Assembly (NCBI GenBank): GCA_964452165.1
Contig: CAYVKP010000001.1
Coordinates: 490,729-554,728, forward strand
DNA: 64,000 bases
Reading direction: 5' to 3'
Source: an uncultured Gammaproteobacteria bacterium
GTDB taxonomy: Bacteria; Patescibacteriota; Microgenomatia; Levybacterales; GWA1-39-11
A program made the translations under genes and the position numbers. Below are positions 6,822 to 27,795 of the stretch, one piece after another. The notes beneath the pieces were generated by a model. It ran no database searches. It saw only the letters and a list, made by a program, of their open reading frames with translations, and had not been told where the DNA came from. Numbering within the stretch: the first letter of the stretch is position 1; each line of letters opens with the position of its first letter.

Positions 6822-7433
6822 ATGTCAAGAAATGCCAGGGAACTTATTAAGATTATAAATAGGAAAGGCTTCCTCGAGACTTTAGTTGAGGCGTTCAGAT
6901 TGTTTGCGCAAAAAACCACATCACTTATTAAGATTTCCATCTTAAGGTTGAGAGGGTATAATATCGATTATTCGGTTCTACTAAGGGGTAACAACAATTT
7001 TTTCCAAAGCGTAAAAAATTCCATTACTATTTCAGGAAAAGTAACTCTTGGTAGGGCCACTAGGATGACTGCGGGAGGGTCAGGGAAAGTTCACATAGGT
7101 GAAAATGTATTAGTCGACGACTCTACTTTCATAATGGCTCATGAGAAAATCGAAATAGGAAAAAATACTACGATTGCCGCTTTTTGTTTTATTACAGACT
7201 TCAATCATAGCTATAAAAACGGCAGTGTTTCGGTTCTTGAGCAGGGGTACGAAACAAAGCCGATTTCAATTGGCAAGAATGTTTGGATTGGCACACACTG
7301 TATTGTTCTCCCTGGAATAAAAATTGGCGATGGGTCAATTATAGGCGCTGGATCAGTTGTTACTCACGATGTGCCCGAAAACTCCATTGCAGTTGGAAAC
7401 CCTGCAAGAATCGTCAAGAAGATTAAAAGATGA
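6822..7433 (+). CDS. Hexapeptide-repeat (LbH) acetyltransferase, sugar O-acetyltransferase-like
   Basis: C-terminal [46 protein letters not shown] shows typical left-handed beta-helix hexapeptide repeats. Confidence 0.65.
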
Positions 7434-9703
7434 AAAGATTAAATAGTCGAGGAAAAGTTCACGTTTCTAAAATTGTCCACTTTATTAATATCGCAAACAT
7501 TTTTGTTGTAGGGTTGCTGATATTATTGCCCTTTTTTTTGTTTGATGGAAGACTATTTCTTGGGGGAGATGATACCAGGTTTTACATGGTCTACCCGAGG
7601 GAAATACTTAACAGCTTCACTCTCTATTCCTGGAATAATATTTCCTCTTTGCCTTATTACATACCAAATCATTATTGGTTGCCCTTCGTTTTTGTGGGGT
7701 CGGTGATCGACAGTATATTAAATTCCAAATTAATTCTGTCCTATTTTTCCTTTTCCGCAGTTCTTGTTTTGGGATTTATTTATTTTCAGAAATTTATTCG
7801 TCAGTTGATAGGGGAAGAGTATTCAATCGCTTTTGTGACAGGATTGATTTATCTTCTTTCTCCAATAACTCTCGTCAGTCTATCTTTCTTCCTGGCCCCT
7901 GTTTGGCTAATCGCATTGGTTCCTATTGTTGCGTATTACTACATATGTTACTTGAGGTGGGGAAAAATCGTTGACATTATAAAAGTTGTAGCATGGTCAA
8001 TTTTACTATCCTTTGTATTTTTTTCTATACCTTGGATATTAGGTCTACTTTTACCTTTATTTTTAGGAATGATCTTTTTTTTGATTTTCGTCGAAAATCC
8101 CTTCAAGAGTTTACTTAAGAGATCTCTTATTTTCGTTTTCTTTATTATTTCGAGTCAATTATTTTGGTTAATCCCATTTGCCGCCTCTCTAGTCTCGGGT
8201 GGACAGACTAGTTTGGGACAGAAGATCGTCTCAACGGATCTTGCGACCAGTTACAGAAATACAATCCTTAGCACTGCAACAGATAATATCGTATACCCGT
8301 TACTTACCATGTATCACAGAAGAATGGTTTTCGAATTTGGGTGGCATCTAAAAGATATATTTCTTAATTATTTCGATCACGTTTTACCTTTGAGCGCCAT
8401 TTTTCCAGTTGTTTTACTCTTGGGAATTATCAAATACAATCGAGTTTTTGAAATCGGCAAGAAAAAAATGTTTATTTTTCTTCTTGCATCTTTTATTAGT
8501 GTCCTTTATTTATGTACGGTAAATGTCGGGTTTTTGAAAAATGTATTTATACTTTTGGGTTATCTTCCGGGCTTTGCTGTTTTAAGAAACTTCACCGATA
8601 AGTTTGCTTTGGCTTTTATATTTATTTACGCCACGCTACTTTCCTTTTGTTTTTTAGCTATTAAAAAATCCTACAAGTTGTACGCCATAACATTATTAGC
8701 AACGCTTGCTGTCGTTTTGATAAATTTTGTGCCTGTTAAGAGAATGATTAGTGCCCCTTTATGGAAAACTAACAACACTTACACTACTGTTAATTTACCC
8801 AAGGAATATATATCTTTCATTAAGAAGACAAAGCTGACTATTCCAAGCACTACCAATATAATTGCATTACCTCAAAATATCACGGCATACTCAATAATCA
8901 CCGAAGATAACGGCAGAAATGCTTATGTTGGTACATCTCCGCTCAAGTTTTTTACAGGCATAAATGATCTGACCGGTACTGATTCTTATCCAAGTTTTAT
9001 ATCTCAAGAGATTCAGCGGTTGATTGTCAAAAGAGACTATAGTAATCTTCTTACTTTATTCACCCAAATCAATGCGGGGTACTTGATGGTTACCAACAAT
9101 GCACCTCGCGAAGTTAAGGATTCTTACCTTTATGACAGAGATTACTTGAAGTTCCAAGATAAGCAGCTTATAGACTCTATCGTAGAACGCGAGGTGGTCC
9201 GTAGCAGCAAGGGCAACTATGTAATCTACAAACTCAAAAACTCTTCAAGTATTATATCTTCCGGAGCAAGACTTGAATACAAGAAAATTAGCCCGGTGGA
9301 CTATGAAATTAAATTATCGAGCTTATCAGGTAATAAGGATCTGTTTTTTAAAGAGACGTACCATCGGGGTTGGAGTTTATATGTAGCTAAAAAAAATCAA
9401 AACCATGAATCTTCAGATTTTAAATTCGATTTTTTACTTCCGCTTAGTAAGCCTGTTTTTACGGCCTCACATGTTGGACAATTGCCTTATGGTAACAAGT
9501 GGGTGATCAACGGAGATGTGATAAAAAATGATTTCGCTAAAGACTATTATACGGAAAACAAGGACGGGTCAATTGATGTTAAGCTTCACTTGTATTTTGC
9601 TCCGCAATTCAATTTCTATATAGGATCCATTATGAGCTTCATATTTATGATAGTTGGTGGTTTATATTTATGGAAGCTAGACAAGAAACAAAATGAGAAA
9701 TAA
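7430..9703 (+). CDS. Polytopic membrane protein, GT-C-like glycosyltransferase candidate (paralog A1; YfhO/AftD-like architecture)
   Basis: The N-terminal half (~430 aa) has more than 10 predicted TM helices, with an [11 protein letters not shown] acidic motif after TM1 as in GT-C enzymes. A soluble C-terminal domain ends in a TM ([21 protein letters not shown]). It is paralogous to 11907..14216. Confidence 0.45.
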
Positions 9704-10718
9704 AGTAAGCAAATATTTCAATAAAATAATCTCATCAAAGACTGTCAAATGGATTGTAATTCCATGCGTGCTAGTTTTGTTGTGGATTTCGCTTTCTCTA
9801 TTTTACAGTTCGTATAGGAGTTTTACGGTTCTGCAATACGCTCACTCACAGGATAAGGATAATCATTCCCGGGGTGGGAAGCTATTAAAAGGAAAACGAC
9901 TTACGGGAGTATTTGAGGCTCGAGAAAATTATCTTGGAATAGTTGCTGTCAGATTTGGAGACGTCTCAAAGTTAGACTTTGACAAGGAGGATTTGATCCT
10001 ATTCAAGATTAAAGAACGTGGACAAGACAATTGGTTATATCAAAACATGTACAGATCTGGTTCCTTTACTTCAGGCCAGTATTTCCCTTTCGGATTCGCA
10101 GAGATCAAAAATTCTAAAGGTAAGAGGTACGAATTCGAAATTACTTCTCTTAGAGGTAACGTGGATAATTCTCTCGAGACAAAGCTGGTGAATCCGATTT
10201 ATTTGACTAAGTATAAATTTCCTAAAGATATAGCTTTCAAAAATCTCAGTTCGACCATAAGTTTCATGAGTAAAAAGTTGATAACATTCTTCACGAATAT
10301 TGATTCACTATTATCATCGACAGTATTCATATTGCCTTTAGTTTTCTATTATGTATGGATTTTACTCCCAATGAAAGTAATAAAAAACACCTATAAAACA
10401 GACGGCAAGAAAATTTTCGGAGTACTGGTTGTAATTTTGTTACTTAGCGATGTTGTTCTATACGATTTTATAAATACAGGCTTAATGCTTGGACTTCTTG
10501 GTCTTTGGTGTCTGTGTGTGTACTTGAATAAATTAAGAAGTAGCTTAACCTTTGCTCTAGCATTTTTACTCATCTGTATATCCATGTTTAGTATATACTT
10601 CGGTTTGGGAGTATCTGTCGATAAAGCATCAGCTTTTGCCTATTTATTTTTTTTGACAGGACTTTTTCAGATCGTTGGTGAATATAGACATGACAAGAAG
10701 CTTTTTACTTCAAAATAG
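9693..10718 (+). CDS. Membrane protein of unknown function (paralog B1)
   Basis: N-terminal TM, ~200-aa extracytoplasmic domain (GIVAVRFGD...LFKIKERGQDNWLYQ...FPFGFAEIKNSKGKRYEFEITSLRGN) and C-terminal 4–5 TM helices. It is paralogous to 14213..15199. Confidence 0.5.
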   Translation: MRNKVSKYFNKIISSKTVKWIVIPCVLVLLWISLSLFYSSYRSFTVLQYAHSQDKDNHSRGGKLLKGKRLTGVFEARENYLGIVAVRFGDVSKLDFDKEDLILFKIKERGQDNWLYQNMYRSGSFTSGQYFPFGFAEIKNSKGKRYEFEITSLRGNVDNSLETKLVNPIYLTKYKFPKDIAFKNLSSTISFMSKKLITFFTNIDSLLSSTVFILPLVFYYVWILLPMKVIKNTYKTDGKKIFGVLVVILLLSDVVLYDFINTGLMLGLLGLWCLCVYLNKLRSSLTFALAFLLICISMFSIYFGLGVSVDKASAFAYLFFLTGLFQIVGEYRHDKKLFTSK

Positions 10719-11703
10719 GTGACAGGATTGTACTAAAATGCTCAGCAATCTTTTTCTGACTTGCGAGCGAGGGATGTATGTCGTCTGAGAAATCTCCATT
10801 CACAAGCCAGCTGTAGGGATCTACAAAATACGCTCCATACTCATCCGAAATTTTTCTAATGATTCTGTTGTAGTTTTCAAGTTGGCCCTTGTCAATGTCT
10901 CTTCTTGGCAACGTTGATACTAGAAATATTTTTGCCCCTGAATTAAAGTGCTTAACGTCGCCAACAATCTTGTAATAATCGCGTTCAAAATTATCAAGAT
11001 TCACATTTCCTGCCGCGTCATTTGTCCCTAGAAAAATAATTATAGCATCAGACTTAAAGCTCAGCAGATCCTTTCTGTAGCGGTAAATCGCGTTGTCTAC
11101 GCCTTTCATTTGTGAGACGGTAGACTGTATTATGCTTGCATTGTGAAGTTCATATCCAATATCATCCGCTAAAATCTGACTATAGTTATCTTTTCCGTAG
11201 ACCGTTGAAATGGAATCACCCAAAACTGATAGAATCTTATTGTGGAGTCTATATTGGAATAGATGAGCGTTTCCTTCAAGATATATTCCCTTCATTCTGA
11301 TCTGGCAAGGAAAATAAAAATGACTGCACGTGTGCCTGACGGTTACTGTATGGGCTGATGTTTTATCTACCGAGATGGACAATTTTTGGCTATCAAGGTT
11401 TGGAGATGAGAGAGAGTAGCCTTTTCCATCAACGAAAATTTCAACTCCCTGATCGGATTTTGATGTAGTCTCAAACTCAAAGTCTACCTCGCGGCTTCGG
11501 GAGAACATGAAATTTAGTTCGCTTCCCGCGTATAGGCTTTCGTTGTCTTTCCAACCGACACCTCGGTTGATTAGACTACTGTCTGCAAAGTTCTTAATTC
11601 CTTGAGCAGCTGGCGTGTGGGCGTATGTCAAAAACGACACTACAAGAGTTAATGCCACAATAACCAGAAGTCTAGTGCTGCTATCTGATAACTTTTTTCT
11701 CAT
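10705..11703 (-). CDS. SGNH/GDSL-family hydrolase (secreted esterase/acylhydrolase)
   Basis: Signal/TM N-terminus, then VLGDSIS (block I), FLGTNDA (block III) and DDIHPS (block V DxxH). Confidence 0.65.
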   Translation of the reverse strand: MRKKLSDSSTRLLVIVALTLVVSFLTYAHTPAAQGIKNFADSSLINRGVGWKDNESLYAGSELNFMFSRSREVDFEFETTSKSDQGVEIFVDGKGYSLSSPNLDSQKLSISVDKTSAHTVTVRHTCSHFYFPCQIRMKGIYLEGNAHLFQYRLHNKILSVLGDSISTVYGKDNYSQILADDIGYELHNASIIQSTVSQMKGVDNAIYRYRKDLLSFKSDAIIIFLGTNDAAGNVNLDNFERDYYKIVGDVKHFNSGAKIFLVSTLPRRDIDKGQLENYNRIIRKISDEYGAYFVDPYSWLVNGDFSDDIHPSLASQKKIAEHFSTILSPILK

Positions 11704-11906
11704 GAAGCAATTTATGTAATTATACTGGTTTCAATAAACGTAGACAATATTGATCGGGTTGTATTCTGTCTCATCAGTTCGTGCTTTACAAAGAAAATTA
11801 ACATTGATATAGTTAATAAAATTTTAAATACATTACATTCATCTGCCATATAAGCTTACAGAGCTGCTCGTAATGGAAATCTTAAAACCGGAAATATTCA
11901 CCTAAG

Positions 11907-14216
11907 ATGAATTTATTAAGAAAGAACTCTTTTATAGTTATAAACATTGTTGTAGTTTTGCTCTTATTTTCTCTCCCTTATTATTTGTTTGGTGGGAAGT
12001 TATTTCTGGGAGGTGACGATACAAGACTTTTTTATATTTATCCTAAGGATTATTTAGTCAACGTCCCGTTTTTTTCTTGGACCAATTTATCTTCAATAGG
12101 TTGGAGCTTTTCATACCAAACATTTATTCCGTTCGTTTCCGTGTGGGTCATACTTTCGGAAGTTATAAGAAATAAAATTATTTTAGGATATTTCTCTTTC
12201 TCTCTACCTTTGGTTTTAGGGTTCGTTTTTTTCCAAGAGTTTACACGCGAGCTAATAATTGAGAACAAAGATAAATATAAACCGGAGATATTGGCGGGCG
12301 CTCTTTTTTATACTCTCTCCCCTATAATAATAAATAATCATTTCCTTAATCCTCTCATACCCATATGGCTAATCGGTTTGATTCCCGCACTTTGTTGTTA
12401 CTTTTTAAGATTTCTGAAAACGGGCGAGTACAAAAATGTTTTCATATCAATTATTCTTACTACTATTTTTTCATTCGGCTCTCACAATATTCCTTGGCTC
12501 GCGGGGTTTCTGATGCCACTCGTTCTTTCTCTCGTGGTGTGTTCAGTTCTATTCAGTAAACACGACGTTTACACTTTCATAAAAAGGATTGCCATTTTTT
12601 CTACAATTACTTTGGTCTCTCAGGCCTTTTGGTTATTTGGCTTCGTAATTACGTTTATAAATCCGAGTAGCAGCAACGTTGCCTCAAAGGTTGTCTCGGG
12701 AAGCTTTGTTAATGATTTTGCAAGGTCGGTTGAAGCGACATCTGTCGGGACAATTATTTATCCTCTCTTAAATCTTTACCAAAGACAAATCGCTTTCGAC
12801 TTCGGTTGGAATTTGAAGAATATTTACCAATTATTCTATGACAAAATCTATTTCTTAAATGTCATCTATATAGCAATCCTGTTTTCAGGAATTTTAAATC
12901 TTGCAAAGAATACGAGTAGGCTGGAGCGGAAAATATTCTTAATTCTTCTATCTGCGTTCATTATTGCTCTCTTCTTGTTTACAATAAATATTGGCTCGCT
13001 TTTTAATTTTTACATTTGGCTCGGACACATTCCGGGGTTTGTATTATTCAGAAATCCGTATGATAAATTTGCTCTCGGATATGGACTCATCTATTCACTT
13101 TTAATCACGTACTGCCTTATTATATTGAACCGCAAGTATAAGAAGATAAACTTCACAGGGCTTTCAATTGTCGTAGCATTTTTTGTAGTCGTCATGATCA
13201 ACGCTTTGCCTACAAGGGCAATAATCGTCTCTCCGTTATGGACCACTAAGAATATTTATAAAAACATTATTATTCCTAAAGAGTATTTTGATTTTATGAC
13301 ACAAATAAAGACTAAGATTTCACCCTCGAATAATATACTGAGTTTACCTTACGGTTTGTCGTTATACACAATCATAAAAGATCAAAGTTCAAATAACGTT
13401 TATGCCGGCGTCTCGCCCGTCGTAATGTTTAGTGGCGTAAACGATATCTCAGGATACTTATCATTTAATTACACCCCCGAAGCAACTGCGTTCGATCGCG
13501 CCATAGTGGGCAGAGACTACAACGGCATGAATAATATTCTATATACGCACAACATAAATTATGTATTTTTAACAAAAAATATACCCGAGGAAGTGAAAAA
13601 ATCCTATCTTTTCGTGCCTGAAGTTATGAAAAATCAGGATGGGGAATTTCTCTCCAAAATAACTTCAAAAAAAATCATAACAAGCACTGAGGGCAATTAC
13701 GAACTTTATGAAGCAAAAAAAAGAAACCTTCAAATCGCTTCGGATAACTCTCTTTTTAAAAGAGTAAGTAGGGTAAGATACGAGATTTTAATAAAAAATA
13801 TTAAGAGTAGGCAAGAGTTGGATTTCAATGATACCTTCCATGAGGGTTGGAAACTATATTTACAGCGTGGGGCGTTCAACTGCCAAGATCCTAAGAAAAT
13901 AACCGAACTTAAGACAGTTGAATGTCAACCTGATCCTAAAATGTTTGAGCCAAGTGACTTGACCTATCTATGGCAAAAAAGTGTTTTTGATAAGTCTCAC
14001 AGTATTAAGAATGGCTTTTCCAATAAGTGGGTGATTGACCCCGTTTTTATTAAGAGAAGCGTAGACAAAAAACTCTATACGTTGAATAAGGATGGTTCGA
14101 TTGATCTACGACTGACTTTGTACTTTGAACCTCAAGAGTATTTTTACATAGGTGGTCTGATCAGTATTTTGACTATTGGGTCACTATTTATTTTTGTTGT
14201 TTTTAGACGAAAATGA
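11907..14216 (+). CDS. Polytopic membrane protein, GT-C-like glycosyltransferase candidate (paralog A2)
   Basis: [15 protein letters not shown] after TM1. It aligns along its length with 7430..9703 (GYFSFS..LVLGF.FFQ.F.R.LI; C-terminal DGSIDLRLTLYFEPQEYFYIGG + TM). Confidence 0.45.
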   Translation: MNLLRKNSFIVINIVVVLLLFSLPYYLFGGKLFLGGDDTRLFYIYPKDYLVNVPFFSWTNLSSIGWSFSYQTFIPFVSVWVILSEVIRNKIILGYFSFSLPLVLGFVFFQEFTRELIIENKDKYKPEILAGALFYTLSPIIINNHFLNPLIPIWLIGLIPALCCYFLRFLKTGEYKNVFISIILTTIFSFGSHNIPWLAGFLMPLVLSLVVCSVLFSKHDVYTFIKRIAIFSTITLVSQAFWLFGFVITFINPSSSNVASKVVSGSFVNDFARSVEATSVGTIIYPLLNLYQRQIAFDFGWNLKNIYQLFYDKIYFLNVIYIAILFSGILNLAKNTSRLERKIFLILLSAFIIALFLFTINIGSLFNFYIWLGHIPGFVLFRNPYDKFALGYGLIYSLLITYCLIILNRKYKKINFTGLSIVVAFFVVVMINALPTRAIIVSPLWTTKNIYKNIIIPKEYFDFMTQIKTKISPSNNILSLPYGLSLYTIIKDQSSNNVYAGVSPVVMFSGVNDISGYLSFNYTPEATAFDRAIVGRDYNGMNNILYTHNINYVFLTKNIPEEVKKSYLFVPEVMKNQDGEFLSKITSKKIITSTEGNYELYEAKKRNLQIASDNSLFKRVSRVRYEILIKNIKSRQELDFNDTFHEGWKLYLQRGAFNCQDPKKITELKTVECQPDPKMFEPSDLTYLWQKSVFDKSHSIKNGFSNKWVIDPVFIKRSVDKKLYTLNKDGSIDLRLTLYFEPQEYFYIGGLISILTIGSLFIFVVFRRK

Positions 14217-19773: not shown

Positions 19774-19988
19774 AACCACAGGATATTTTATTTTTTATTG
19801 TAATTGCCGGACTATTGATGACTCGAAAGCCCAAGCTTCTTGTCGCCGCGGGCATTATTTGTCTTGTTTTCTCTGTTCCCTTATTTGCTTTCTGGATTTT
19901 CTTTACAGCGCAACGCTTAGTTTATTACGCTTTTGGGTTTATTTTGGTCGCCTCGGTTTCAATTCTGCTTCGAAGACCACAAAATTGA
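19770..19988 (+). CDS. Small two-TM membrane protein
   Basis: 72 aa, two hydrophobic helices, 4-nt overlap with the upstream gene. Confidence 0.3.
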   Translation: MKPQDILFFIVIAGLLMTRKPKLLVAAGIICLVFSVPLFAFWIFFTAQRLVYYAFGFILVASVSILLRRPQN

Positions 19989-20024: not shown

Positions 20025-20564
20025 ATGAGAATAGGAATCGATGTTAGCCAGCTTGCTTACCAGAATACCGGAGTAGCAAATTATCTTTCTGATTTGGTTT
20101 TAAAACTTATTGATACCGACCGGGACAACGAATATATTCTTTTTTTTTCAGCCTTACGAAGGAGATTGCCAATCAGTTTTGAAGAGAAGGTTAGAGAGTT
20201 GGCAAACGTACGGCTTAAAAAGTTTAGCATGCCTCCCGCGGTTCTTGACGTAATCTGGAATAGACTGCACATTCTTCCTATAGAAAACTTGCTTGGAGGG
20301 CTTGATGTTTTTTTGACTTCAGATTGGGCAGAGCCACCCGTACGCAGGGCCAAGAAGATTACAATTATCTATGACCTTATTGTCTATAAACATCCTGAAG
20401 AAACTGATCAAAAAATTATATCAGTTCAAAAGAGAAAGCTTGCCTGGGTAAAAAAAGAGAGCAATATTGTATTTTGTATCTCAGAATCAACTAAAAGTGA
20501 TGTCGAAAACATATTGGGAATTCAAAGTTCTAACGTTAAGGTTATTTATCCTGGAATATTATGA
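20025..20564 (+). pseudogene. Truncated GT4 glycosyltransferase, N-terminal (acceptor) domain only; possible gene remnant or split gene
   Basis: MRIGIDVSQLAYQNTGVANYLSDLVLKL...NEYILF parallels the N-terminus of the full GT4 at 29860 (MKIGIDCRLAKQTGVGRYTRNLIINLLKLDKKNEYVLF). It stops after ...VKVIYPGIL, before any GT-B C-terminal (donor-binding) domain. Confidence 0.4.
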
Positions 20565-21703
20565 AAATAGGAATTAATGGTTTTGAAGCAGTCATACCCA
20601 GGTTTGGATACGACAAAAGTGGTTTACCCAACCGGGTGGGAAGCTCTGAGGTTTGCTTTGAACTTCTTAGCCAACTCTCAAAAATCGATAAAAAAAATAA
20701 ATACTCCATATTTCTTCCGGTCCCACCAACCGCCGATCTTCCAACCGAATCGGAAAATTGGCATTACGAAGTAATTCCGGATTCAAAACTCTGGACAGTA
20801 GTGGGTTTGGGTAAAAAGCTTTTGTATGGGGAAAAGTTCGACGTTTTTTTCTCCCCAACTCACTACGGCCCCCTAATCACGCGAAGTCCGGAGGTTGTGT
20901 CGGTTCTGGATGTATCGTATAAATATTTCCCCGAGCTTTTTAAGAAAAAAGATCTAGCCCAGCTTTCTATATGGGGTAAGTATTCTATAAAAAAAGCCTC
21001 AAAAATCATTACGATAAGCAATTCTAGCAAGAGTGATATAATTAAGGAGTACGGTGTAGCCAACGAGAAAATTGCCGTAGTTTATCTTGGTGTCAAGGAG
21101 AACAATAAAACGAAAATGAAAGCATCGGAGGTTTTGGAAAAGCATAATATTAAAAAACCCTATCTTCTATTTGTAGGTACTCTTCAACCAAGGAAAAACA
21201 TATCAAGATTGATAGAGGCCTTCTCTCAGATCGTGAAAGGGCATAAAAATTTATCTTTAGTTGTTGTCGGAAGACGTGGTTGGCAGTTTGAGGAGATTTT
21301 GAATTCACCCTTAAAATTTGGAGTCGCAGAAAGTGTGAGATTTTTGGAAAATGTAAACGATGACGAGCTCCCCTCTTTCTACGAAAACGCAGAAGCCTTT
21401 GTGTTGCCGAGTCTTTATGAAGGATTCGGATTACCGGTTCTTGAAGCCATGAAATATAATTGTCCCGTTGCAACGAGCGATATCTCATCTCTCCCCGAGG
21501 CCGGAGGAGATGCTGCGGTCTATTTTGATCCATATGACACGCATGATATGGCAGAGAAAGTTGGAAAAATCCTATCAAACAGCAAATTACGTTCGGAAAT
21601 GGTTAAAAAAGGCCATGCGCAGGTCAAGAAATTTTCTTGGGAGAAAAGTGCACGTGAGGTTCTGAAGGTTTTAGAGGAAGTGGGAGGTAAAAATGCTGCG
21701 TAA
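20561..21703 (+). CDS. Glycosyltransferase group 1 (GT4), complete
   Basis: LLFVGTLQPRKN...VVVGRRGW...FVLPSLYEGFGLPVLEAMKYNCPVATSDISSLPEAGGDAAVYFDP is the canonical GT4 E-x7-E region. Confidence 0.75.
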   Translation: MKIGINGFEAVIPRFGYDKSGLPNRVGSSEVCFELLSQLSKIDKKNKYSIFLPVPPTADLPTESENWHYEVIPDSKLWTVVGLGKKLLYGEKFDVFFSPTHYGPLITRSPEVVSVLDVSYKYFPELFKKKDLAQLSIWGKYSIKKASKIITISNSSKSDIIKEYGVANEKIAVVYLGVKENNKTKMKASEVLEKHNIKKPYLLFVGTLQPRKNISRLIEAFSQIVKGHKNLSLVVVGRRGWQFEEILNSPLKFGVAESVRFLENVNDDELPSFYENAEAFVLPSLYEGFGLPVLEAMKYNCPVATSDISSLPEAGGDAAVYFDPYDTHDMAEKVGKILSNSKLRSEMVKKGHAQVKKFSWEKSAREVLKVLEEVGGKNAA

Positions 21704-22247
21704 AATCACGAGGAGAATCTCAGCGATTCTTCTTGAAACTGACAATATGATCCTGCGATGCGTTGGAAATGTTCCATTTCACCATGTCAGGCGGTTTTTC
21801 TATAGAATTGGCGGAATGAGGATAGGCGCGGGTTCGGCAATTCATATGGGTGCGGTTTTCTATAAAGTTTCAAATATTAAAATTGGAACGGACACCATAA
21901 TTGGTGAAAATGCGGTTTTTGACGGCCGTGACAAGCTTACGATAGGTAACCACGTGGATATTGCTTCGGAGGTTATGATATACAACGCGGAGCACGATAT
22001 CAACGATGAACATTTTAAAGCGGTAACAGGTCCGGTTGAAATAGAAGACTACGTATTTATAGGTCCTCGAGTGATAATTTTACCGGGAGTCAGAATTGGA
22101 AAAGGGGCAGTAGTAGGAGCGGGAGCGGTAGTTACTAAAGACGTTGAAGAATTTGCCATTGTCGGCGGTGTCCCTGCAAAGGTAATCGGAGAGCGCAAAC
22201 TAAAAAACCCCACATACCGACTGGGAAGAGCAGCATGGTTTCGATAA
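21693..22247 (+). CDS. Hexapeptide-repeat (LbH) acetyltransferase
   Basis: IGENAVFDG...IGNHVDIASEVMI...VFIGPRVIILPGVRIGKGAVVGAGAVVTKDV. Confidence 0.65.
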   Translation: MLRKITRRISAILLETDNMILRCVGNVPFHHVRRFFYRIGGMRIGAGSAIHMGAVFYKVSNIKIGTDTIIGENAVFDGRDKLTIGNHVDIASEVMIYNAEHDINDEHFKAVTGPVEIEDYVFIGPRVIILPGVRIGKGAVVGAGAVVTKDVEEFAIVGGVPAKVIGERKLKNPTYRLGRAAWFR

Positions 22248-23077
22248 TAATCCTCACGTATAACAGCGAGAAATTTATTGAGGAGACAATTGGAAGTCTC
22301 TTGGATTTTACTACTGGCACAGAAATAATAGTTGTGGACAACGCATCAACGGATAAGACTGTGAGTAAGATCAAAAAATTCGGGAAGAAGGTCAAATTTA
22401 TTGAAACAGGAGCCAACCTTGGGTTTTCAGCCGGAATTAACGTAGGAGCAAAAAAAGCGACCGGTGAGTATCTATTGTTCGTAAACCCCGACACAAAATT
22501 TAAAAGTGGAAACATAGAAGACATGATATCCGTATTTGACAACAACATTGATGCGGGAGTCGTGGGGGGAAGGATGCAGGCTGCGGACGGACATGTGGAA
22601 AAATCGACAGGAAAATTTTTTGGAGTTCTTGCAAGTATTTTAATTGCAGCAGGACTTGATGAGAAATTAGGAGTCAGGCGGTCTCCGGGCAAAATAGAGA
22701 AAGTTGATTTTGTCTCGGGCGGTTTCATGATGGTAAAGGCTGAATTATTTAGGAAATTGGGTGGATTTGACGAGAATCTTTTCATGTACGTTGAAGATAT
22801 GGAGTTATGTTTTCGCGCAAGACTTTCAGGATACTCAACTTACTTTGTTCCAAGCGTTGTTGTGACGCATATAGGTCAGGGTAGTTCCAATCGGGCATTT
22901 GCAATAAAGAATATTTTCAGGGGAGTTTTGTATTTTCACAAAAAACACGGAACACCTTTCTCATATGGAATTGTCAAAGCTCTTTTTACCCTCAAGTCTC
23001 TGACCCTTGTAACAGCAGGTAAAATAATGAATAATAAATATCTACTGGAGACCTATAGCGGTGCAGTCAAAACATGA
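22235..23077 (+). CDS. Glycosyltransferase family 2
   Basis: VSIIILTYNSEKFIEETIGSL...EIIVVDNASTDKT; DxD-type motif (VNPDT). Confidence 0.75.
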   Translation: MVSIIILTYNSEKFIEETIGSLLDFTTGTEIIVVDNASTDKTVSKIKKFGKKVKFIETGANLGFSAGINVGAKKATGEYLLFVNPDTKFKSGNIEDMISVFDNNIDAGVVGGRMQAADGHVEKSTGKFFGVLASILIAAGLDEKLGVRRSPGKIEKVDFVSGGFMMVKAELFRKLGGFDENLFMYVEDMELCFRARLSGYSTYFVPSVVVTHIGQGSSNRAFAIKNIFRGVLYFHKKHGTPFSYGIVKALFTLKSLTLVTAGKIMNNKYLLETYSGAVKT

Positions 23078-26000
23078 AGAAAATCTTATCCTACGTTGTC
23101 GATAACCTACTTTTTTTTATAACTCTTTTCCTTTTAGTATTCATACCCTTATATCCCAAGTTTCCATTGATAGACATAAAGAATACCTGGGTATATGTTA
23201 GAGTAGAGGATTTTCTCGTTCTCGCGACAGTTTTCATTTGGCTTGTATATTACATTAGAAAGAAAGTTGTACTTAATGCTCCCCTTACCTTGCCGATCAT
23301 TATATTTTGGATAGTGGGCGCCATCGGCACGATTCACGGCGTAGTTCTCGTTTTCCCCGGTATTGCAAATGTTTTTCCCAATGTAGCCTTCCTGAGTTTC
23401 ATGCGGCACATAGAGTATATGTCGTTGTTTTTTATAGCGTATTCCTCGGTCAAGGACAGAAAACAAATCTGGGCTTTTATCGCCGCCATAACAATAACGC
23501 TTTTTGGAGTTGTTGCTTACGGTTTGGGACAAAAATATTTAGGGTTCCCAGCTTACCTTACAATGAACGAGGAATACGCAAAAGGCGTTGCCATAAGGTT
23601 ATCGGATCTTTCTCGTATTCCCTCAACTTTTGCCGGTCATTATGATTTGGCCGCATATCTTGTTTTGATTGTTCCGATTCTTGCGAGCCTTGTTATTGGG
23701 GTGAAGAATATTTTGGGCAAAGCTGTTCTTGCTGTTGCGACAGTTTTGGGCGTTGGCCTACTGTTTATGACTGTTTCAAGAGTCTCTTTTTTTGTTTTGA
23801 TAGTTGCGCTTTTTGCTGTCCTCTATTTTCAAAAGAAAAAACTTATCCTATATTCTCTACCGTTCATAGTAATACTCGGATTTTTATTCGTTAGTTTCAA
23901 GCCCACTTTGCTTGCGCGCTTCAGCAACACAGTTCGTGAAGTAAATGTTCTTGTTGATGGGAAGACGGGGACAGCCGTAGGCCAAGTAAAATTCGTTCCG
24001 TTCTCTTATTTTAAAGATAAAGTAATCAAGCAACAAATTATAGGCGACCGGGATCAACTCGATTCGGCAATGGTAGGCCAAACCCAAAATATACGTGAGA
24101 TAGCAGAATCCACTTCCGCCGCAACGCTCAGGCAAATTTCCCCCGACGCCCAAGTCCCCTTAGTTTTCGCAACGAATGTTTCAACTGGGGAGAATTTGCC
24201 GCAGGGGACAGGCTATATAAATTTGTCTCTATCGCCAGTCGTAAAGCGAGTCGGCAATTTTTTCTATGAGCTTGCCCCGAATATTGCCTCCAGCGCATCA
24301 GCTCAAGTCTTGATTCTCCACGGCGACTTCATAATTAAAAAAGCTTCGGCTTATGATTTGTCTTTTACAACAAGATTCCAGGGGGAATGGCCCCATGCCT
24401 TGCTTGCGTTTGAAAGAAATGTGTTGGTAGGGAGCGGTTATGGCGCAGTGAGTCTTGCCGTAGACAATAATTACCTTAGAATGCTTGGCGAAACAGGGCT
24501 TTTGGGCACCTTATCGTTTCTTGCAATATTCTTGGTTCTCGGGATCTACATAAAGAAAGTTTTACCTGATATTCGCTCCTCTGTTGTCAAGAGCTTTATC
24601 TTGGGTTTTGCGGCGGGTCTTATTGGACTTGCTCTGAACGCAACCCTTATTGATGTTTTTGAGGCAAGCAAAATTGCATTCCTGATGTGGATGTTGATAG
24701 GGGTCGTATTCGGAATTATAAATTCTTATAAAACCCAAGTTAACATAGTGGAGGAATTAAAAGCCGCTTTAACCTCAGATGTTGCAGTCGGTGTTTACCT
24801 TTTGATTGTTGCAGGTGTAATTTTCTCGCGAATGCTCGGAAATTATTTTGTTGCCGATGATTTTACTTGGTTCCGTTGGGCTGCCGACTGTCATAGCTCC
24901 GTTATCTCATTAGGCGGTTGTTCCTCGTTTCTATCTACTATATCTCACTATTTCACAGAGGCTGGTGGATTTTTCTGGCGACCCGGGACAAAAACCTACT
25001 TTCTCTTGATGTATTCAGTCTTCTGGTTAAATCAAACCGTTTATCATGCCGTGTCTATAGTTCTCCATTTTATAGTCGCTTTTCTTTTCTTCCTTCTGGC
25101 AAAAAAGATTCTCAAAAATTCTCTCCTTGCAGCGGGCGCATCGCTATTATTCTTAATTATGAGTGGATACGTCGAAATAGTATTTTGGATTTCTGCAACC
25201 GGTCATTTGTTCAATGCCGTATTCATGCTTCTTGCTCTCATTATGTATATTTCTTGGCGAGAGAAAAAACAGGCTCTGTATCTTGTGATTTCGCTGTTGT
25301 CGACGGTGCTATCTCTCCTTTTCTATGAGACCGGAGTGGTAGTGCCGCTTTTAATACTTGCATATGAGCTGGTATATAATCCTTCCTTCAACATAAAGAG
25401 ATTCTTTAAAAGGGCAGAGTACCTAATCTTATTTGTTCCCAACCTTTTTTATCTTGTCATCAGATTTTTAGCCGGAAGTCATTGGCAAGGCGGAGACTAT
25501 AGTTATAACTTGGTAAAACTCCCCTTCAATCTAATAGGTAATTTGGTAGGTTATGTGGGACTCACATTTATGGGCCCGCTCTTCTTGCCGGCATATGAAA
25601 AAATGCGAACTGTCCTCAGGGGAAATTTACTCGTTGCCGGCGTTATAGCGCTCGTTTTAATTGTGGTGGTAATTTTTGCAGCGCGTGTGTTTATGAAAAC
25701 AATTGAGGGAGAAGATAGAAAAACAGTGTTGTTTGCCGGATTATTCTTTGTTATATCACTACTTCCATTCATAGGTTTTGGCAATATTACGGCTCGCTAC
25801 AGTTATCTTGCATCTTTAGGATTAATAATCATTTTTGTATTTATCTTGAGGAAACTTTATAGATATTTGCTTGCGGAAGGGCGCCCCATCGCAATATCAG
25901 TGGTCGTACTTATTATTGCGGCTTTTTCCCTGCTCCATATTATTGAAGTTCAGCAAATCCATCAGGACTGGAACGGCGCCGGACTTGAAGCAAAAAACTT

Positions 26001-26322
26001 CTTCACCGCGATAGATGATTCCTATTCGGACTATTGGTCAAGTGAGCCGATGCAGCTCCACTTTGTTAACGTGCCCTTAAAAAATGGAGAGGCTTGGGTT
26101 TTTCCGTGGGGAATATCTGATGCAACCTGGTTTGCCTTCAAAAATCCCAAGGCTCAAGTCTATACCGACCCGCAGGTCACTTACGATCTTCAGTCAAAGA
26201 TTTCCCGTAATTTCAAAGTTTTTGAGTTTAACGGAGACGGAAGCGTGACGGAGGTCCAGCCGCCCACTAAGTCCCTCGGTTCGCCAACCCCAACTCCAAC
26301 CTCGTCTCTCAAGCGTTATTAA
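23074..26322 (+). CDS. Fusion membrane protein: O-antigen ligase/Wzy_C-like domain (N-terminal) + GT-C-like polytopic domain (C-terminal), Thr/Pro-rich C-terminal tail
   Basis: The N-terminal half has ~10 TMs and a ~200-aa extracytoplasmic loop. The Wzy_C-type signature GSGYGAVSLAVDNNYLRMLGETGLLG is present. The C-terminal half adds ~10 TMs with FVADDFTWFRW after a TM (GT-C-like DD motif). The tail is SLGSPTPTPTSSLKRY. Confidence 0.5.
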   Translation: MKKILSYVVDNLLFFITLFLLVFIPLYPKFPLIDIKNTWVYVRVEDFLVLATVFIWLVYYIRKKVVLNAPLTLPIIIFWIVGAIGTIHGVVLVFPGIANVFPNVAFLSFMRHIEYMSLFFIAYSSVKDRKQIWAFIAAITITLFGVVAYGLGQKYLGFPAYLTMNEEYAKGVAIRLSDLSRIPSTFAGHYDLAAYLVLIVPILASLVIGVKNILGKAVLAVATVLGVGLLFMTVSRVSFFVLIVALFAVLYFQKKKLILYSLPFIVILGFLFVSFKPTLLARFSNTVREVNVLVDGKTGTAVGQVKFVPFSYFKDKVIKQQIIGDRDQLDSAMVGQTQNIREIAESTSAATLRQISPDAQVPLVFATNVSTGENLPQGTGYINLSLSPVVKRVGNFFYELAPNIASSASAQVLILHGDFIIKKASAYDLSFTTRFQGEWPHALLAFERNVLVGSGYGAVSLAVDNNYLRMLGETGLLGTLSFLAIFLVLGIYIKKVLPDIRSSVVKSFILGFAAGLIGLALNATLIDVFEASKIAFLMWMLIGVVFGIINSYKTQVNIVEELKAALTSDVAVGVYLLIVAGVIFSRMLGNYFVADDFTWFRWAADCHSSVISLGGCSSFLSTISHYFTEAGGFFWRPGTKTYFLLMYSVFWLNQTVYHAVSIVLHFIVAFLFFLLAKKILKNSLLAAGASLLFLIMSGYVEIVFWISATGHLFNAVFMLLALIMYISWREKKQALYLVISLLSTVLSLLFYETGVVVPLLILAYELVYNPSFNIKRFFKRAEYLILFVPNLFYLVIRFLAGSHWQGGDYSYNLVKLPFNLIGNLVGYVGLTFMGPLFLPAYEKMRTVLRGNLLVAGVIALVLIVVVIFAARVFMKTIEGEDRKTVLFAGLFFVISLLPFIGFGNITARYSYLASLGLIIIFVFILRKLYRYLLAEGRPIAISVVVLIIAAFSLLHIIEVQQIHQDWNGAGLEAKNFFTAIDDSYSDYWSSEPMQLHFVNVPLKNGEAWVFPWGISDATWFAFKNPKAQVYTDPQVTYDLQSKISRNFKVFEFNGDGSVTEVQPPTKSLGSPTPTPTSSLKRY

Positions 26323-26358
26323 ATTGATAATAAGGTTCGTATCAATTAGAATAAAATC

Positions 26359-27795
26359 ATGAAGCTAAAGGATTTGGCTATTTTGCTGCTGTTTGTTTTG
26401 GGTTTTATTGTTCGCCTTTATCGCTTTGACAACCCCGTTGCTGACTGGCATGCATTTAGGCAAGGCGACACTAACGCCGTTTCTCAGATTTACGTTCGTG
26501 ATGGAATCAATCTTCTATCTCCTCGCTACTTCGATATATCCAATATTCAATCGGGGAAAGATAATCCCAAAGGATACAGACTTGTAGAATTCCCCATTTA
26601 TAATGCTGTTCAGGCGTTTTTATTCACTGTTTTTAAGACCCTGACGCTTCCCGAGTGGGGCAGAATAATTTCTATAATTGCAACTCTTTCGGGGGCATTC
26701 TTTGTTTACAAACTAGTCAAAAAATACGCAAATGAGATGGCCGGAATTTTCTCAGCTTTTTTCTATTTATTCTTACCTTTTTCAATTTTTTACGGAAGAA
26801 CAATCCTGCCGGATCCCTCTATGGCCGCAGCAATTCTTGGTGGAATATATTTTTTTGACTTGTGGACGTCAAGAAAGAATTTTAAATTTGAAATTTTAGA
26901 TTTTAAATTTTTGTTCGCGATTCTATTTACGGCCACTTCTTTTCTTCTAAAGCCTTACGCCATAATCTTTACTCTTCCAATGATTTATCTTGCCTGGAAC
27001 AAGTTTAAATTCGAAATTATTAAAAAATGGCAACTTTGGTTTTTCGCTATTGTTACCTTGATTCCCATTGTTCTTTGGAGAAAATTTATCGGGCAACACC
27101 CCGAAGGAATTCCGGTCTCTGACTGGCTTTTCAACGGTAACGGCATAAGGTTTAGGCCTTCTTTTTTCCGCTGGATATTTTACGAAAGAATTACCAGGTT
27201 AATACTTGGTTTTTCCGGAGTAGTGTTTCTTTTGGACGGGATTTTATATCTATTCAAAAATAAGAACAAAATGTTTTTCTTATCTTTTGCCGTATCTTCG
27301 CTAATTTATCTGTTCGTTATAGCAACGGGCAACGTACAGCATGACTATTATCAAATTTTAATAATCCCTACAATTTCTATTTTCGCGGGCCTTGGAGCGT
27401 TTGGTTTATTTAAAACGGTTGAGAAGTGGGGCAGGACTGCTGCTATTGGCGTATGTTCGATTCTGATAGTTGTATCGTTATTCTTTTCCTGGAGGCAGGT
27501 TCGTGATTATTTCAATATAAATGATACAAGAATGGTTCATGCAGCAGCTGTTGCGAATAAAATTTTACCTGCCGACGCGACGGTTATTGCACCATATGAT
27601 GGGAGTACAACTTTTTTGAATTTGATACAAAGACGCGGTTGGCCAACTTTTGAGAAGGGTATAGAGGAATTAACCCGTGACGGGGCACAATATTTAGTGA
27701 TAGCCTCACCCACAAAGAATGATTTTTCAGGATTTGGGAAAACTTATCAACACGTTGCAGCTGGGCCTGACTATTTGATCCTTAAATTGAAATGA
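26359..27795 (+). CDS. GT-C-family membrane glycosyltransferase (ArnT/PMT-like)
   Basis: 478 aa with ~11 TMs. RFDNPVADWHAFRQGD lies in the first extracytoplasmic loop, as in ArnT/PMT-type transferases. Confidence 0.45.
   Translation: MKLKDLAILLLFVLGFIVRLYRFDNPVADWHAFRQGDTNAVSQIYVRDGINLLSPRYFDISNIQSGKDNPKGYRLVEFPIYNAVQAFLFTVFKTLTLPEWGRIISIIATLSGAFFVYKLVKKYANEMAGIFSAFFYLFLPFSIFYGRTILPDPSMAAAILGGIYFFDLWTSRKNFKFEILDFKFLFAILFTATSFLLKPYAIIFTLPMIYLAWNKFKFEIIKKWQLWFFAIVTLIPIVLWRKFIGQHPEGIPVSDWLFNGNGIRFRPSFFRWIFYERITRLILGFSGVVFLLDGILYLFKNKNKMFFLSFAVSSLIYLFVIATGNVQHDYYQILIIPTISIFAGLGAFGLFKTVEKWGRTAAIGVCSILIVVSLFFSWRQVRDYFNINDTRMVHAAAVANKILPADATVIAPYDGSTTFLNLIQRRGWPTFEKGIEELTRDGAQYLVIASPTKNDFSGFGKTYQHVAAGPDYLILKLK

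What the first reader, a model, noticed from the sequence alone, without database searches (positions are those of the whole stretch)
7430..27795. Unusual density of GT-C-like polytopic transferases (seven in 20 kb), four forming a paralogous family with a conserved C-terminal Y-x-P-x-x-F-Y-x-G + TM tail
Besides A1/A2, the minus-strand gene 15838..17700 and gene 17722..19773 share the same layout. Each has more than 10 TMs with an acidic motif after TM1, a soluble domain, and a terminal TM preceded by an aromatic/Pro motif: [36 protein letters not shown] and YKPQRFVDIGLI. Two further GT-C-like proteins (the C-terminal half of 23074..26322, and 26359..27795) bring the total to seven. Together with GT2 ×3, complete GT4 ×5 and an initiating PHPT, this looks like a lipid-linked glycan assembled by GT-A/GT-B enzymes and then transferred or extended outside the membrane. 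Possible functions are protein O-/N-glycosylation or S-layer and teichoic-acid-like polymers. For a small genome this is a heavy investment and probably defines the cell's surface chemistry.
Basis: partly seen in the sequence, partly recalled or inferred. Interest (0 to 1): 0.65.

Follow-up and report, generated by a model that had tools for sequence, protein, structure and literature searches.

The report
Cluster of YfhO-like membrane glycosyltransferases
A small-genome bacterium of the candidate phyla radiation packs six large membrane sugar-transferases into 20 kb; four of them are very divergent relatives of the YfhO enzymes that decorate Gram-positive cell surfaces, and they travel with a previously undescribed partner membrane protein.

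Summary
Between 7430 and 27795 there are six polytopic ORFs with GT-C support. That makes seven GT-C modules, because ORF 23074-26322 fuses an O-antigen-ligase-like half to an ArnT/STT3-like half.

A1, A2, C and D are homologous over their full length. Profile comparisons place all four in the YfhO superfamily, although Pfam's own YfhO model does not detect any of them. An AlphaFold model of A1 matches only GT-C enzymes (STT3, AftD, PglB, ArnT). The Asp after TM1 is invariant in each family's orthologs. The C-terminal aromatic/Gly motif plus final TM is real, but it is a general YfhO feature.

New points:
- Each A gene is followed by an orphan membrane protein, B. This holds in 28 of 29 evaluable species loci.
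- B is fused to D plus a GDSL esterase, or to C, in other genomes.
- A conserved 72-aa membrane ORF is translationally coupled to D.
- The arrangement is confined to Levybacteria/Gottesmanbacteria-like Patescibacteria.

The most likely function is sugar transfer outside the membrane from polyprenyl-phosphate carriers onto an envelope glycopolymer. Protein O-glycosylation is the main rival. The acceptor, donor synthase and flippase are not identified. I rate it a new variant of a known kind, of moderate interest.

The parts
7430..9703 (+). A1: YfhO-superfamily GT-C, 757 aa. TM domain 1-440, outside alpha/beta plus beta-sandwich domain 440-725, terminal TM 726-756.
   Evidence: AF2 model. Foldseek hits are GT-C only. 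hhalign against YfhO-annotated proteins gives 97.4%, E 1e-11. No Pfam hit.
7562..7579 (+). A1 G45-G-D-D-T-R50, the predicted catalytic loop after TM1. The A2 equivalent lies at 12009-12026.
   Evidence: Invariant in 26 A-family sequences. D47 aligns with the near-invariant Asp of YfhO proteins.
9693..10718 (+). B1: orphan partner protein, 341 aa. TM1, an outside domain of about 160 aa, then 5 TMs. Overlaps A1 by 11 nt.
   Evidence: 28% identical to B2, E 2e-37. A B gene follows A in 28 of 29 evaluable species loci. No Pfam, PDB or YfhO relation.
10705..11703 (-). Membrane-anchored GDSL/SGNH esterase or acyltransferase, 332 aa, with the catalytic domain predicted outside the membrane.
   Evidence: Pfam Lipase_GDSL_2, E 1.6e-20. 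N-terminal TM at 12-30. Fused to B+D in L005, L014 and L046.
11907..14216 (+). A2: paralog of A1, 769 aa.
   Evidence: 35% identity over full length, E 1.7e-161. Member of alignment A1.
14213..15199 (+). B2: paralog of B1, 328 aa. Overlaps A2 by 4 nt.
15162..15854 (+). SAM-dependent methyltransferase, 230 aa.
   Evidence: Pfam Methyltransf_11, E 7.5e-19. Syntenic in L001.
15838..17700 (-). C: YfhO-superfamily GT-C, 620 aa. Catalytic-loop candidate N-G-N-D35-L-N-G-N at 17584-17607. C-terminal motif at 15913-15948.
   Evidence: hhalign against YfhO-annotated proteins gives 100%, E 1.4e-44, 586 columns. Orthologs carry PF10131; distant hits carry PF09586.
17722..19773 (+). D: YfhO-superfamily GT-C, 683 aa. 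S-T-G-D44-W at 17842-17856. C-terminal motif at 19669-19704.
   Evidence: hhalign against A gives 99.8%. Against the YfhO set it gives 99.8%, E 1e-29. 7 of 26 orthologs hit PF11847 weakly.
19770..19988 (+). 72-aa membrane ORF (S72) whose start overlaps the stop codon of D by 4 nt.
   Evidence: ORF listed. Conserved in at least 16 related loci at 40-59% identity; where positions could be compared it lies directly after D, in five loci with the same overlap. The exact sequence is not in the protein collection.
23074..24690 (+). E, N-terminal half: O-antigen ligase/polymerase-like module (Wzy_C, GT-C_B class).
   Evidence: 12 of 24 relatives hit PF04932, best E 4.4e-12. Stand-alone relatives exist. 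Class assignment follows PMC10920833.
24691..26322 (+). E, C-terminal half: GT-C_A module with F-V-A-D-D-F-T-W after its first TM (24847-24870).
   Evidence: AF2 model pLDDT 85. The 31 top Foldseek hits are all GT-C. D57 of the half (D598 of E) is at least 90% conserved.
26359..27795 (+). F: PMT_2-type GT-C, 478 aa.
   Evidence: Pfam PF13231, E 8.9e-9, 36.2 bits against a cut-off of 26.1.
261..7433 (+). Upstream cytoplasmic genes in one tightly packed string: GT2 with one C-terminal helix, polysaccharide deacetylase, formyltransferase, two SDR epimerase/dehydratases, GT4, methyltransferase, hexapeptide acetyltransferase.
   Evidence: The SDR-SDR-GT4-acetyltransferase-A-B order is kept in L001 and L003/L004; L005 has two methyltransferases in place of the GT4.
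20025..23077 (+). GT4 N-domain-only ORF, GT4, hexapeptide acetyltransferase, GT2.
   Evidence: The same four-gene order occurs in L007.
27792..35879 (+). GT4, GT2, GT4, GT4, sugar-1-P nucleotidyltransferase, the initiating phosphoglycosyl transferase (33164-33802), and a DUF4012 membrane protein. This is the end of the glycan locus.

Best explanation
The region is the core of a roughly 35-kb envelope-glycan locus of a Patescibacteria (Levybacteria/Gottesmanbacteria-like) bacterium.

A1, A2, C and D are highly divergent members of the YfhO superfamily of GT-C glycosyltransferases. F and the C-terminal half of E are ArnT/PMT/STT3-like GT-C_A enzymes. The N-terminal half of E is an O-antigen-ligase/polymerase-like GT-C_B module.

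Proposed mechanism:
1. Cytoplasmic enzymes (PHPT, GT4s, GT2s, and sugar epimerase, formyl-, acetyl- and methyl-transferases) build lipid-linked sugars on polyprenyl phosphate.
2. After flipping, the Wzy_C-like module polymerises or ligates the PP-linked unit.
3. [quoted passage not shown] They would use the invariant Asp in the first outside loop and the PGF-x3-R-x4-K loop of the A and D families. The acceptor is a wall- or membrane-associated glycopolymer.
4. The soluble alpha/beta plus beta-sandwich domain between the last two TMs would hold the acceptor.
5. B is a dedicated membrane partner of these enzymes, possibly for acceptor recognition or carrier handling. The outside GDSL/SGNH enzyme would edit O-acyl groups on the same product.

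Shown here: homology, fold, topology signals, residue conservation, gene linkage and fusions. Inferred: catalysis, donor type, acceptor, and the role of B.
For: - Family: profile comparison with Pfam-YfhO-annotated proteins gives C 100% (E 1.4e-44, 586 columns), D 99.8% (E 1e-29), and A 97.4% (E 1.3e-11). A versus D gives 99.8% over full length.
- Fold: the A1 model matches only GT-C structures. The same holds for the E C-terminal half.
- Conserved residues: the Asp after TM1 and the PGF...R loop of A and D are invariant. The Asp aligns with the YfhO Asp and lies where AftD's essential K39/D41 lie (bioRxiv 10.1101/2019.12.22.885152).
- Topology: the N- and C-termini are Lys/Arg-rich, which places the loop and the soluble domain outside the membrane (read from the sequences).
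- Linkage: A is followed by B in 28 of 29 evaluable species loci, and a D or C gene lies within 10 kb in 24 of 26. Loci selected through B instead show an A or D family member in 15 of 16.
- Fusions: B+D+GDSL occurs in one ORF (L005, L014, L046) and B+C in one ORF (L006/L024, L025).
- Context: PHPT, GT4/GT2 genes, sugar-modifying enzymes and a Wzy_C-like module surround the region.
- Precedent: known YfhO enzymes transfer sugars from C55-P-sugar to LTA or WTA outside the cell (PMC5836110, PMC8035078).
Against: - No window protein reaches Pfam's YfhO or AftD thresholds.
- No PDB sequence match exists.
- C and D folds were not modelled here.
- No CsbB/GtrB-type polyprenyl-P-sugar synthase could be named among the three GT2s. 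No GtrA-like flippase ORF is nearby. No Wzx or ABC exporter lies in the 64-kb window.
- The acceptor is unknown. YfhO-family enzymes also glycosylate proteins in streptococci (PMC12041528), so the polymer acceptor is a preference, not a result.
- Foldseek TM-scores are modest, at 0.37-0.50 for most hits.
Confidence: 0.5

Rival explanations
1. The enzymes and chemistry are the same, but the acceptor is protein. The YfhO-like GT-Cs would O-glycosylate Ser/Thr-rich segments of S-layer, pilus or membrane proteins outside the cell. This is what streptococcal PgtC2 and PgfM1/PgfM2 do.
For: - PgtC2 and PgfM1/M2 are YfhO-family enzymes that glycosylate extracytoplasmic Ser/Thr-rich regions. The Pgf operon also combines two YfhO-like GT-Cs with a GT-A and an epimerase (PMC12041528).
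- The top structural neighbours of A1 and of the E C-terminal half are protein-glycosylating STT3 and PglB.
- E ends in a Pro/Thr/Ser-rich tail.
Against: - The locus contains a PHPT, five GT4s and a Wzy_C-like polymerase/ligase module, which fits a polymer pathway.
- An SGNH/GDSL enzyme is fused to D in relatives. I know such domains from glycan O-acetylation; that is background knowledge and was not tested here.
- No candidate acceptor protein was identified in the window.
Confidence: 0.28
2. One or more of A, C and D act as oligosaccharyltransferases. They would move a complete polyprenyl-PP-linked oligosaccharide en bloc onto protein or onto a wall anchor, as GT66 OST and PglB do.
For: - The best Foldseek hits are STT3 and PglB.
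- A PHPT pathway producing PP-linked oligosaccharide is present.
Against: - Sequence-profile membership is in the YfhO superfamily, not STT3.
- None of the six GT-C ORFs has a WWDYG-type motif.
- A terminal TM follows the soluble domain, which STT3 and PglB lack (my recollection of those structures; not tested here).
- GT-C_A families other than GT66 use lipid-P-monosaccharide donors (PMC10920833).
Confidence: 0.07
3. The proteins keep a GT-C-like shape but are not transferases. They would act as scaffolds or transport aids for envelope lipids or glycans, as proposed for mycobacterial MmpA.
For: All four give weak NCBIfam matches to the MmpA trehalose-lipid delivery family. D scores E 3.3e-5 and 22.7 bits, far below the 210-bit cut-off. 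No donor synthase or flippase was found nearby.
Against: - The acidic and basic residues are invariant at the positions that GT-C enzymes use.
- The profile links to genetically validated YfhO glycosyltransferases are strong.
- The MmpA scores are insignificant against the curated cut-off.
Confidence: 0.05

Closest known systems
YfhO family (Pfam PF09586): B. subtilis and S. aureus YfhO (LTA GlcNAc), Listeria YfhO (WTA GlcNAc), streptococcal PgtC2 and PgfM1/M2 (protein O-glycosylation)
   Same: - Homology is detectable over most or all of the length by profile comparison.
- The layout is the same: about 13 TMs, a large outside domain, then a final TM.
- The conserved Asp after TM1, the PGF...R loop of A and D, and the C-terminal aromatic-x-x-G motif before the last TM are all visible in YfhO-annotated proteins.
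   Different: - The divergence is too great for the Pfam model.
- Up to four paralogs lie in one locus.
- No adjacent CsbB-type GT2 and no GtrA-type flippase is present.
- There is an obligate neighbouring orphan protein, B, which is sometimes fused, and a coupled 72-aa ORF. I found neither described for YfhO systems.
- The families occur in Patescibacteria, not Firmicutes.
Mycobacterial AftD (PF11847, PDB 6W98) and the Aft/Emb series
   Same: - GT-C fold with an essential acidic or basic pair after TM1.
- The periplasmic alpha/beta plus beta-sandwich domains are followed by a return into the membrane.
- Foldseek E 5e-5 to 6w98_A.
- Several GT-C paralogs act in one pathway, which is the idea borrowed for the stepwise-extension model.
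   Different: - The proteins are half the size.
- Pfam scores are below threshold: D 12.6 bits and A1 6.3 bits against a cut-off of 26.
- There is no room for three CBMs.
- There is no C-terminal four-helix bundle or ACP-binding module.
Three-component periplasmic glycosylation systems (GtrA/GtrB/Gtr-type GT-C; ArnC/ArnE-F/ArnT)
   Same: A GT-C enzyme on the outer face would use polyprenyl-P-sugar. F (PMT_2) and the E C-terminal half resemble ArnT and PMT. An ArnC/ArnD/ArnA-like gene set (GT2, deacetylase, formyltransferase, SDR) sits at 261-3845.
   Different: No flippase was recognised. None of the GT2s was identified as a polyprenyl-P transferase. The ArnA match is partial and far below its cut-off.
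O-antigen ligase / Wzy_C (GT-C_B class)
   Same: Stand-alone relatives of E's N-terminal half hit PF04932. There is a long outside loop at about 280-470 between TM blocks.
   Different: E itself does not reach Pfam significance. It is fused to a GT-C_A module in one 1082-aa protein.

Membership tests
YfhO superfamily (PF09586) | Match to the Pfam family model at its threshold | tested here: not met
   A1, A2, C and D give no PF09586 hit even at E up to 10. One of 26 D orthologs hits YfhO at 7e-7.
YfhO superfamily (PF09586) | Homology to bona fide family members by profile-profile comparison | tested here: met
   Against 12 PF09586-annotated proteins: C 100%, E 1.4e-44; D 99.8%, E 1e-29; A 97.4%, E 1.3e-11.
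YfhO superfamily (PF09586) | About 13 TMs with a large extracellular domain between the last two TMs | tested here: met
   Hydropathy, the A1 model, and the published YfhO topology (PMC5836110).
YfhO superfamily (PF09586) | GT-C fold | tested here: met
   Tested for A1 only: the top 17 Foldseek PDB hits are all GT-C. C and D were not modelled; their fold is inferred from homology.
YfhO superfamily (PF09586) | Works with a GT-A polyprenyl-P-sugar synthase (CsbB type) and a GtrA-type flippase | tested here: inconclusive
   Three GT2 genes are present, but none was assigned to that subtype. No small multi-TM ORF was found. Only 64 kb of the genome was seen.
YfhO superfamily (PF09586) | Glycosyl transfer to LTA, WTA or protein | not testable with these tools
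   Needs biochemistry or genetics.
AftD (PF11847, GT-C_AftD) | Match to the family model; three CBMs and a C-terminal four-helix bundle binding ACP | tested here: not met
   D scores 12.6 bits and A1 6.3 bits against a cut-off of 26. The proteins are 620-769 aa against about 1380 aa, with a single terminal TM.
Oligosaccharyltransferase STT3/PglB/AglB (GT66) | WWDYG-type motif in the soluble domain | tested here: not met
   No such motif occurs in any of the six ORFs. Only fold-level similarity was found.
PMT_2 (PF13231), for F 26359-27795 | Match above the Pfam gathering score | tested here: met
   36.2 bits against 26.1, E 8.9e-9.
O-antigen ligase / Wzy_C (PF04932), for the E N-terminal half | Match to the family model | tested here: inconclusive
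   E itself gives no hit at 0.01. 12 of 24 relatives, including stand-alone N-type proteins 31-36% identical to E, hit it with best E 4.4e-12.
GT-C_A fold, for the E C-terminal half | GT-C fold with an acidic motif after its first TM | tested here: met
   Model pLDDT 85. 31 top hits are all GT-C. The A-D-D-F-T-W motif is conserved. No Pfam family matched.

The most novel reading that the evidence does not exclude
[quoted passage not shown] It would build the main envelope glycopolymer of Levybacteria/Gottesmanbacteria-like Patescibacteria rather than merely decorate it, in the way the Aft/Emb series builds mycobacterial arabinan. B would be a new kind of obligatory subunit, for example the acceptor-holding component or the missing carrier-lipid flippase.
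Probability: 0.2. Interest if true: 0.65.

Novelty: new variant of a known kind. Interest (0 to 1): 0.45.

Why it matters
The surfaces of candidate-phyla-radiation bacteria mediate their attachment to hosts, and almost nothing is known about them chemically.

This locus shows that one lineage spends about 2% of a 650-kb contig on six outside-acting sugar transferases. Standard annotation leaves five of the six (A1, A2, C, D and E) without any family name; only F has a Pfam match.

Placing four of them in the YfhO superfamily gives them a testable chemistry. The strict pairing with the orphan protein B and the B+D+GDSL and B+C fusions point to a subunit not described for YfhO systems. The invariant residues and gene pairs offer direct targets for heterologous expression and complex-structure prediction.

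Tried and rejected
- Pfam and NCBIfam scans of A1, A2, C, D, E, B1 and B2 at E up to 10 gave only sub-threshold hints: AftD, MmpA, and for B2 DUF3742 and TgpA_N.
- Profile searches of PDB sequences with the A, C, D, E C-half and B families found nothing meaningful.
- Direct A versus C profile comparison is weak, at 43%. The link rests on D and on the YfhO set.
- The E C-terminal half is not detectably related to F by profile comparison, at 2.5%.
- B is not related to the A family or to YfhO proteins, so it is not a detached YfhO domain.
- A look-up of the window's own A1 gene in the contig index failed. Cluster look-ups returned no names.
- A search for GtrA-like small ORFs with 3 or more TMs found none. 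The 130-aa ORF next to a GT2 in L006 reads like a soluble, cupin-like protein rather than a flippase; this is a reading of its sequence, not a test.
- Literature searches for GT-C enzymes in Patescibacteria or CPR returned nothing relevant.
- MFS, RND or flippase folds were rejected by the fold searches.

Full report
**What is in the region**

Between 7430 and 27795 the large membrane proteins are:
- A1, 7430-9703, 757 aa
- A2, 11907-14216, 769 aa
- C, 15838-17700 on the minus strand, 620 aa
- D, 17722-19773, 683 aa
- E, 23074-26322, 1082 aa
- F, 26359-27795, 478 aa

These are six ORFs, not seven. Together they occupy 13,167 nt, which is 65% of the region and 2.0% of the 650,109-bp contig that carries these exact proteins.

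The region sits inside a tightly packed glycan locus from about 261 to 35879. That locus holds three GT2 genes, five complete GT4 genes plus an N-domain-only GT4 ORF, two hexapeptide acetyltransferases, three methyltransferases, a deacetylase, a formyltransferase, two SDR enzymes, a nucleotidyltransferase, a small phosphoglycosyl transferase and a DUF4012 protein. Downstream lie recO, a type I restriction-modification operon and the dcw peptidoglycan cluster.

**Are the four proteins one family?**

A1 and A2 are clear paralogs, 35% identical end to end with E 1.7e-161.

I collected orthologs of A (47 hits in 5.8 billion proteins), D (212 hits) and C (37 hits). I aligned 26, 26 and 19 of them. 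Profile-profile comparison gave:
- A versus D: probability 99.8%, E 9e-28, 606 aligned columns from the loop after TM1 to the last TM.
- D versus C: 95.6%, E 1e-8, 571 columns.
- A versus C directly: only 43%.

The four are therefore homologous, but as three old subfamilies.

The acidic motif after TM1 is invariant within each family. In A it is G45-G-D-D-T-R50, in C it is N34-D35-L36, and in D it is D44. A and D also share an invariant P-G-F-x3-R-[ND]-x2-K loop.

The conserved core is [YF]-x-P-Q-x-[FYW]-x3-G in A and D. In C only F-x-x-G is conserved.

**What family is it?**

Pfam and NCBIfam do not recognise A1, A2, C, D or E at normal thresholds. There are only faint hints to GT-C_AftD and to MmpA.

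Two lines of evidence still place the four proteins.

*Sequence.* Distant hits of C carry PF09586 (YfhO). Some C orthologs carry PF10131, and some D orthologs carry PF11847 or PF09586. I aligned 12 PF09586-annotated proteins and compared them with each family:
- C: 100%, E 1.4e-44, 586 columns.
- D: 99.8%, E 1e-29, 538 columns.
- A: 97.4%, E 1.3e-11, 317 columns. These cover the TM domain from the G-G-D loop to the PGF-R loop.

The invariant Asp of A and C aligns with the near-invariant Asp of the YfhO proteins. YfhO-annotated proteins also end with the same aromatic-x-x-G motif before a final TM, for example '...YKSTPFAIGLII...' in P0194. [quoted passage not shown]

*Structure.* An AlphaFold2 model of A1 built on the A alignment has pLDDT 80 and pTM 0.81. 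It shows a TM domain, an alpha/beta plus beta-sandwich outside domain at 440-725, and a terminal helix at 726-756. Its 17 best Foldseek PDB matches are all GT-C enzymes: STT3, AftD 6W98, PglB and ArnT, at probability 0.98-1.00. Below them the list falls to transporters at probability 0.14 or less.

**E and F**

F passes PMT_2 above the gathering score.

E has 8,989 relatives among representative proteins. They include stand-alone versions of each half.
- Twelve of 24 sampled relatives hit Wzy_C, the O-antigen ligase family. That family belongs to the GT-C_B class (PMC10920833).
- The C-terminal half (residues 540-1082) has no Pfam match. It models well, with pLDDT 85, and its 31 best PDB matches are all GT-C: STT3, PglB, AglB, ArnT, DPY19, Pmt4, AftA, ALG6 and EmbB. 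It carries a conserved A-D-D-F-T-W motif after its first TM.

E is thus a fusion of two GT-C modules, which gives seven modules in six ORFs.

*(1) The partner protein B.* Each A gene overlaps a downstream gene, B. B1 is 9693-10718 and B2 is 14213-15199; they are 28% identical with E 2e-37. B has one TM, an outside domain of about 160 aa, and five TMs. It has no Pfam or PDB relative and is unrelated to A or to YfhO proteins.

A scan of one genome per species (185,579 species) with the A profile found only 32 loci. Those with informative names are Levybacteria/Levyibacteriota, Gottesmanbacteria or unclassified Patescibacteria, with one distant Moranbacteria hit. A few carry other names that look like placeholder or mis-binned labels. 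Searching these loci with HMMs built here gave:
- B lies directly after A in 28 of 29 loci with enough downstream sequence.
- A D or C gene lies within 10 kb in 24 of 26.

Loci selected through B instead, from metagenomes, carry an A- or D-family gene next to B in 15 of 16 cases.

*(2) Fusions.* In L005, L014 and L046 a single ORF of 1336-1364 aa joins B, D and the GDSL enzyme. In L006/L024 and L025 the N-terminal part of B is fused to C. The topology is consistent. B's five C-terminal TMs leave its C-terminus inside the cell. D then starts from the inside, and an extra TM places the GDSL domain outside.

*(3) A 72-aa membrane ORF.* It lies at 19770-19988 and overlaps D's stop codon by 4 nt. 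It is conserved in at least 16 related loci; where positions could be compared it lies directly after D, in five loci with the same overlap. The exact sequence is absent from the protein collection, so it is probably unannotated.

*(4) Shared layout.* The window's layout, A-B-GDSL-A-B-MT-C-D, is shared with L001, L009, L011 and L012. Simpler genomes have A-B-D or A-B-C, often with a stand-alone relative of E's C-terminal half nearby. The high GT-C density is therefore a trait of the lineage.

**Mechanism**

*Shown here:*
- Fold.
- Superfamily membership.
- Invariant outside-loop residues.
- Positive-inside termini that place the loop and the soluble domain outside.
- Conserved gene pairs and fusions.

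*From established knowledge:*
- YfhO enzymes take sugars from C55-P-sugars made by a GT-A enzyme and put them on LTA or WTA outside the cell (PMC5836110, PMC8035078).
- Streptococcal YfhO-family enzymes put sugars on Ser/Thr-rich protein segments (PMC12041528).
- GT-C_A families other than OST use lipid-P-monosaccharide donors (PMC10920833).
- AftD's essential K39/D41 sit after TM1, and its beta-sandwich modules bind the glycan acceptor.

*Inferred:*
- E's N-terminal half polymerises or ligates the PHPT-primed unit.
- F and E's C-terminal half add further residues.
- The GDSL enzyme edits acyl groups on the product.
- B helps A (and D or C) with the acceptor or the carrier lipid. A published review already speculated that some GT-C systems need a separate acceptor-recognition protein (PMC8035078).

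I put about 0.9 on 'divergent YfhO-superfamily GT-C enzymes acting outside the membrane'. I put about 0.5 on the polymer-extension version. Protein O-glycosylation is the main rival at about 0.28.

**Gaps**
- No GT2 could be assigned as a polyprenyl-P-sugar synthase. GT2 261-1112 has one C-terminal hydrophobic helix.
- No GtrA-like ORF was found.
- No Wzx or ABC exporter lies in the window.
- None of the six GT-C ORFs has a WWDYG motif, which argues against OST-type enzymes.

**Verdict**

The proteins are new, very divergent subfamilies of a known enzyme kind. They sit in a lineage-specific arrangement with an undescribed partner protein and informative fusions. I rate this a new variant of a known kind, with interest 0.45.

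Noticed in passing
window 19770-19988 (+): A 72-aa ORF with 2-3 hydrophobic helices. Its ATG overlaps the stop codon of D. It is conserved in at least 16 related loci at 40-59% identity; where positions could be compared it lies directly after the D-family gene. The exact sequence is not in the protein collection, so it is probably unannotated.
   Followed up: partly
L005 12121-16215; L014 12175-16185; L046 5998-10092: A single 1336-1364-aa ORF directly after the A gene fuses B, a D-family GT-C and the GDSL esterase. This links three proteins that are separate genes in the window.
   Followed up: yes
L006/L024 11943-14633; L025 13344-16046: The N-terminal part of B (TM1, the outside domain and the first TMs) is fused to a C-family GT-C, giving 896-900 aa. 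This ORF follows a free-standing B gene.
   Followed up: partly
window 261-3845 (+): A GT2 with one C-terminal helix, a polysaccharide deacetylase, a formyltransferase and an SDR form a set reminiscent of ArnC/ArnD/ArnA. The formyltransferase's best NCBIfam hit is ArnA, at E 8e-19 but far below its cut-off. The same four genes are syntenic in L001, next to a PMT_2 gene.
   Followed up: partly
window 20025-20564 (+): A 179-aa ORF holding only the N-terminal GT4 domain, overlapping the next complete GT4 gene by 4 nt. An equivalent 187-aa ORF occupies the same position in L007, so it is probably a conserved split gene rather than a pseudogene.
   Followed up: partly
window 36454-42459 (+): A type I restriction-modification operon (hsdR, hsdM, hsdS). 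A 384-aa gene with a Shedu SduA_C nuclease domain (40169-41323) is inserted between hsdM and hsdS.
   Followed up: no
window 49349-63592 (+): A dcw-type peptidoglycan and division cluster: PBP, MurE-like, MurA, GlmU-like, MurF-like, MraY, FtsW, MurG and FtsA. It is followed by a 585-aa ORF (61835-63592) with no Pfam match.
   Followed up: no
L034 9926-13678: The one distant (29% identity) A-family hit in a Moranbacteria genome is 1250 aa. The C-terminal beta-domain appears twice, and no B gene follows it.
   Followed up: no
L009-L013, L017, L019, L020, L022-L024, L026, L028, L030, L031, L036, L037 (record titles): Many species-representative records that carry this Patescibacteria-type locus are titled 'uncultured Gammaproteobacteria bacterium' (binchicken TPA assemblies). 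Single records are titled Limnocylindrales, Eisenbacteria or Deltaproteobacteria. These titles look like placeholder or mis-binned labels.
   Followed up: no
L003 18139-19800; L005 16221-17897; L007 5280-6944; L008 14433-16100: Stand-alone proteins of about 555 aa related to E's C-terminal GT-C half (E 1e-11 to 1e-27) recur next to the A-B module in relatives. A third GT-C type is therefore a regular member of the system.
   Followed up: partly
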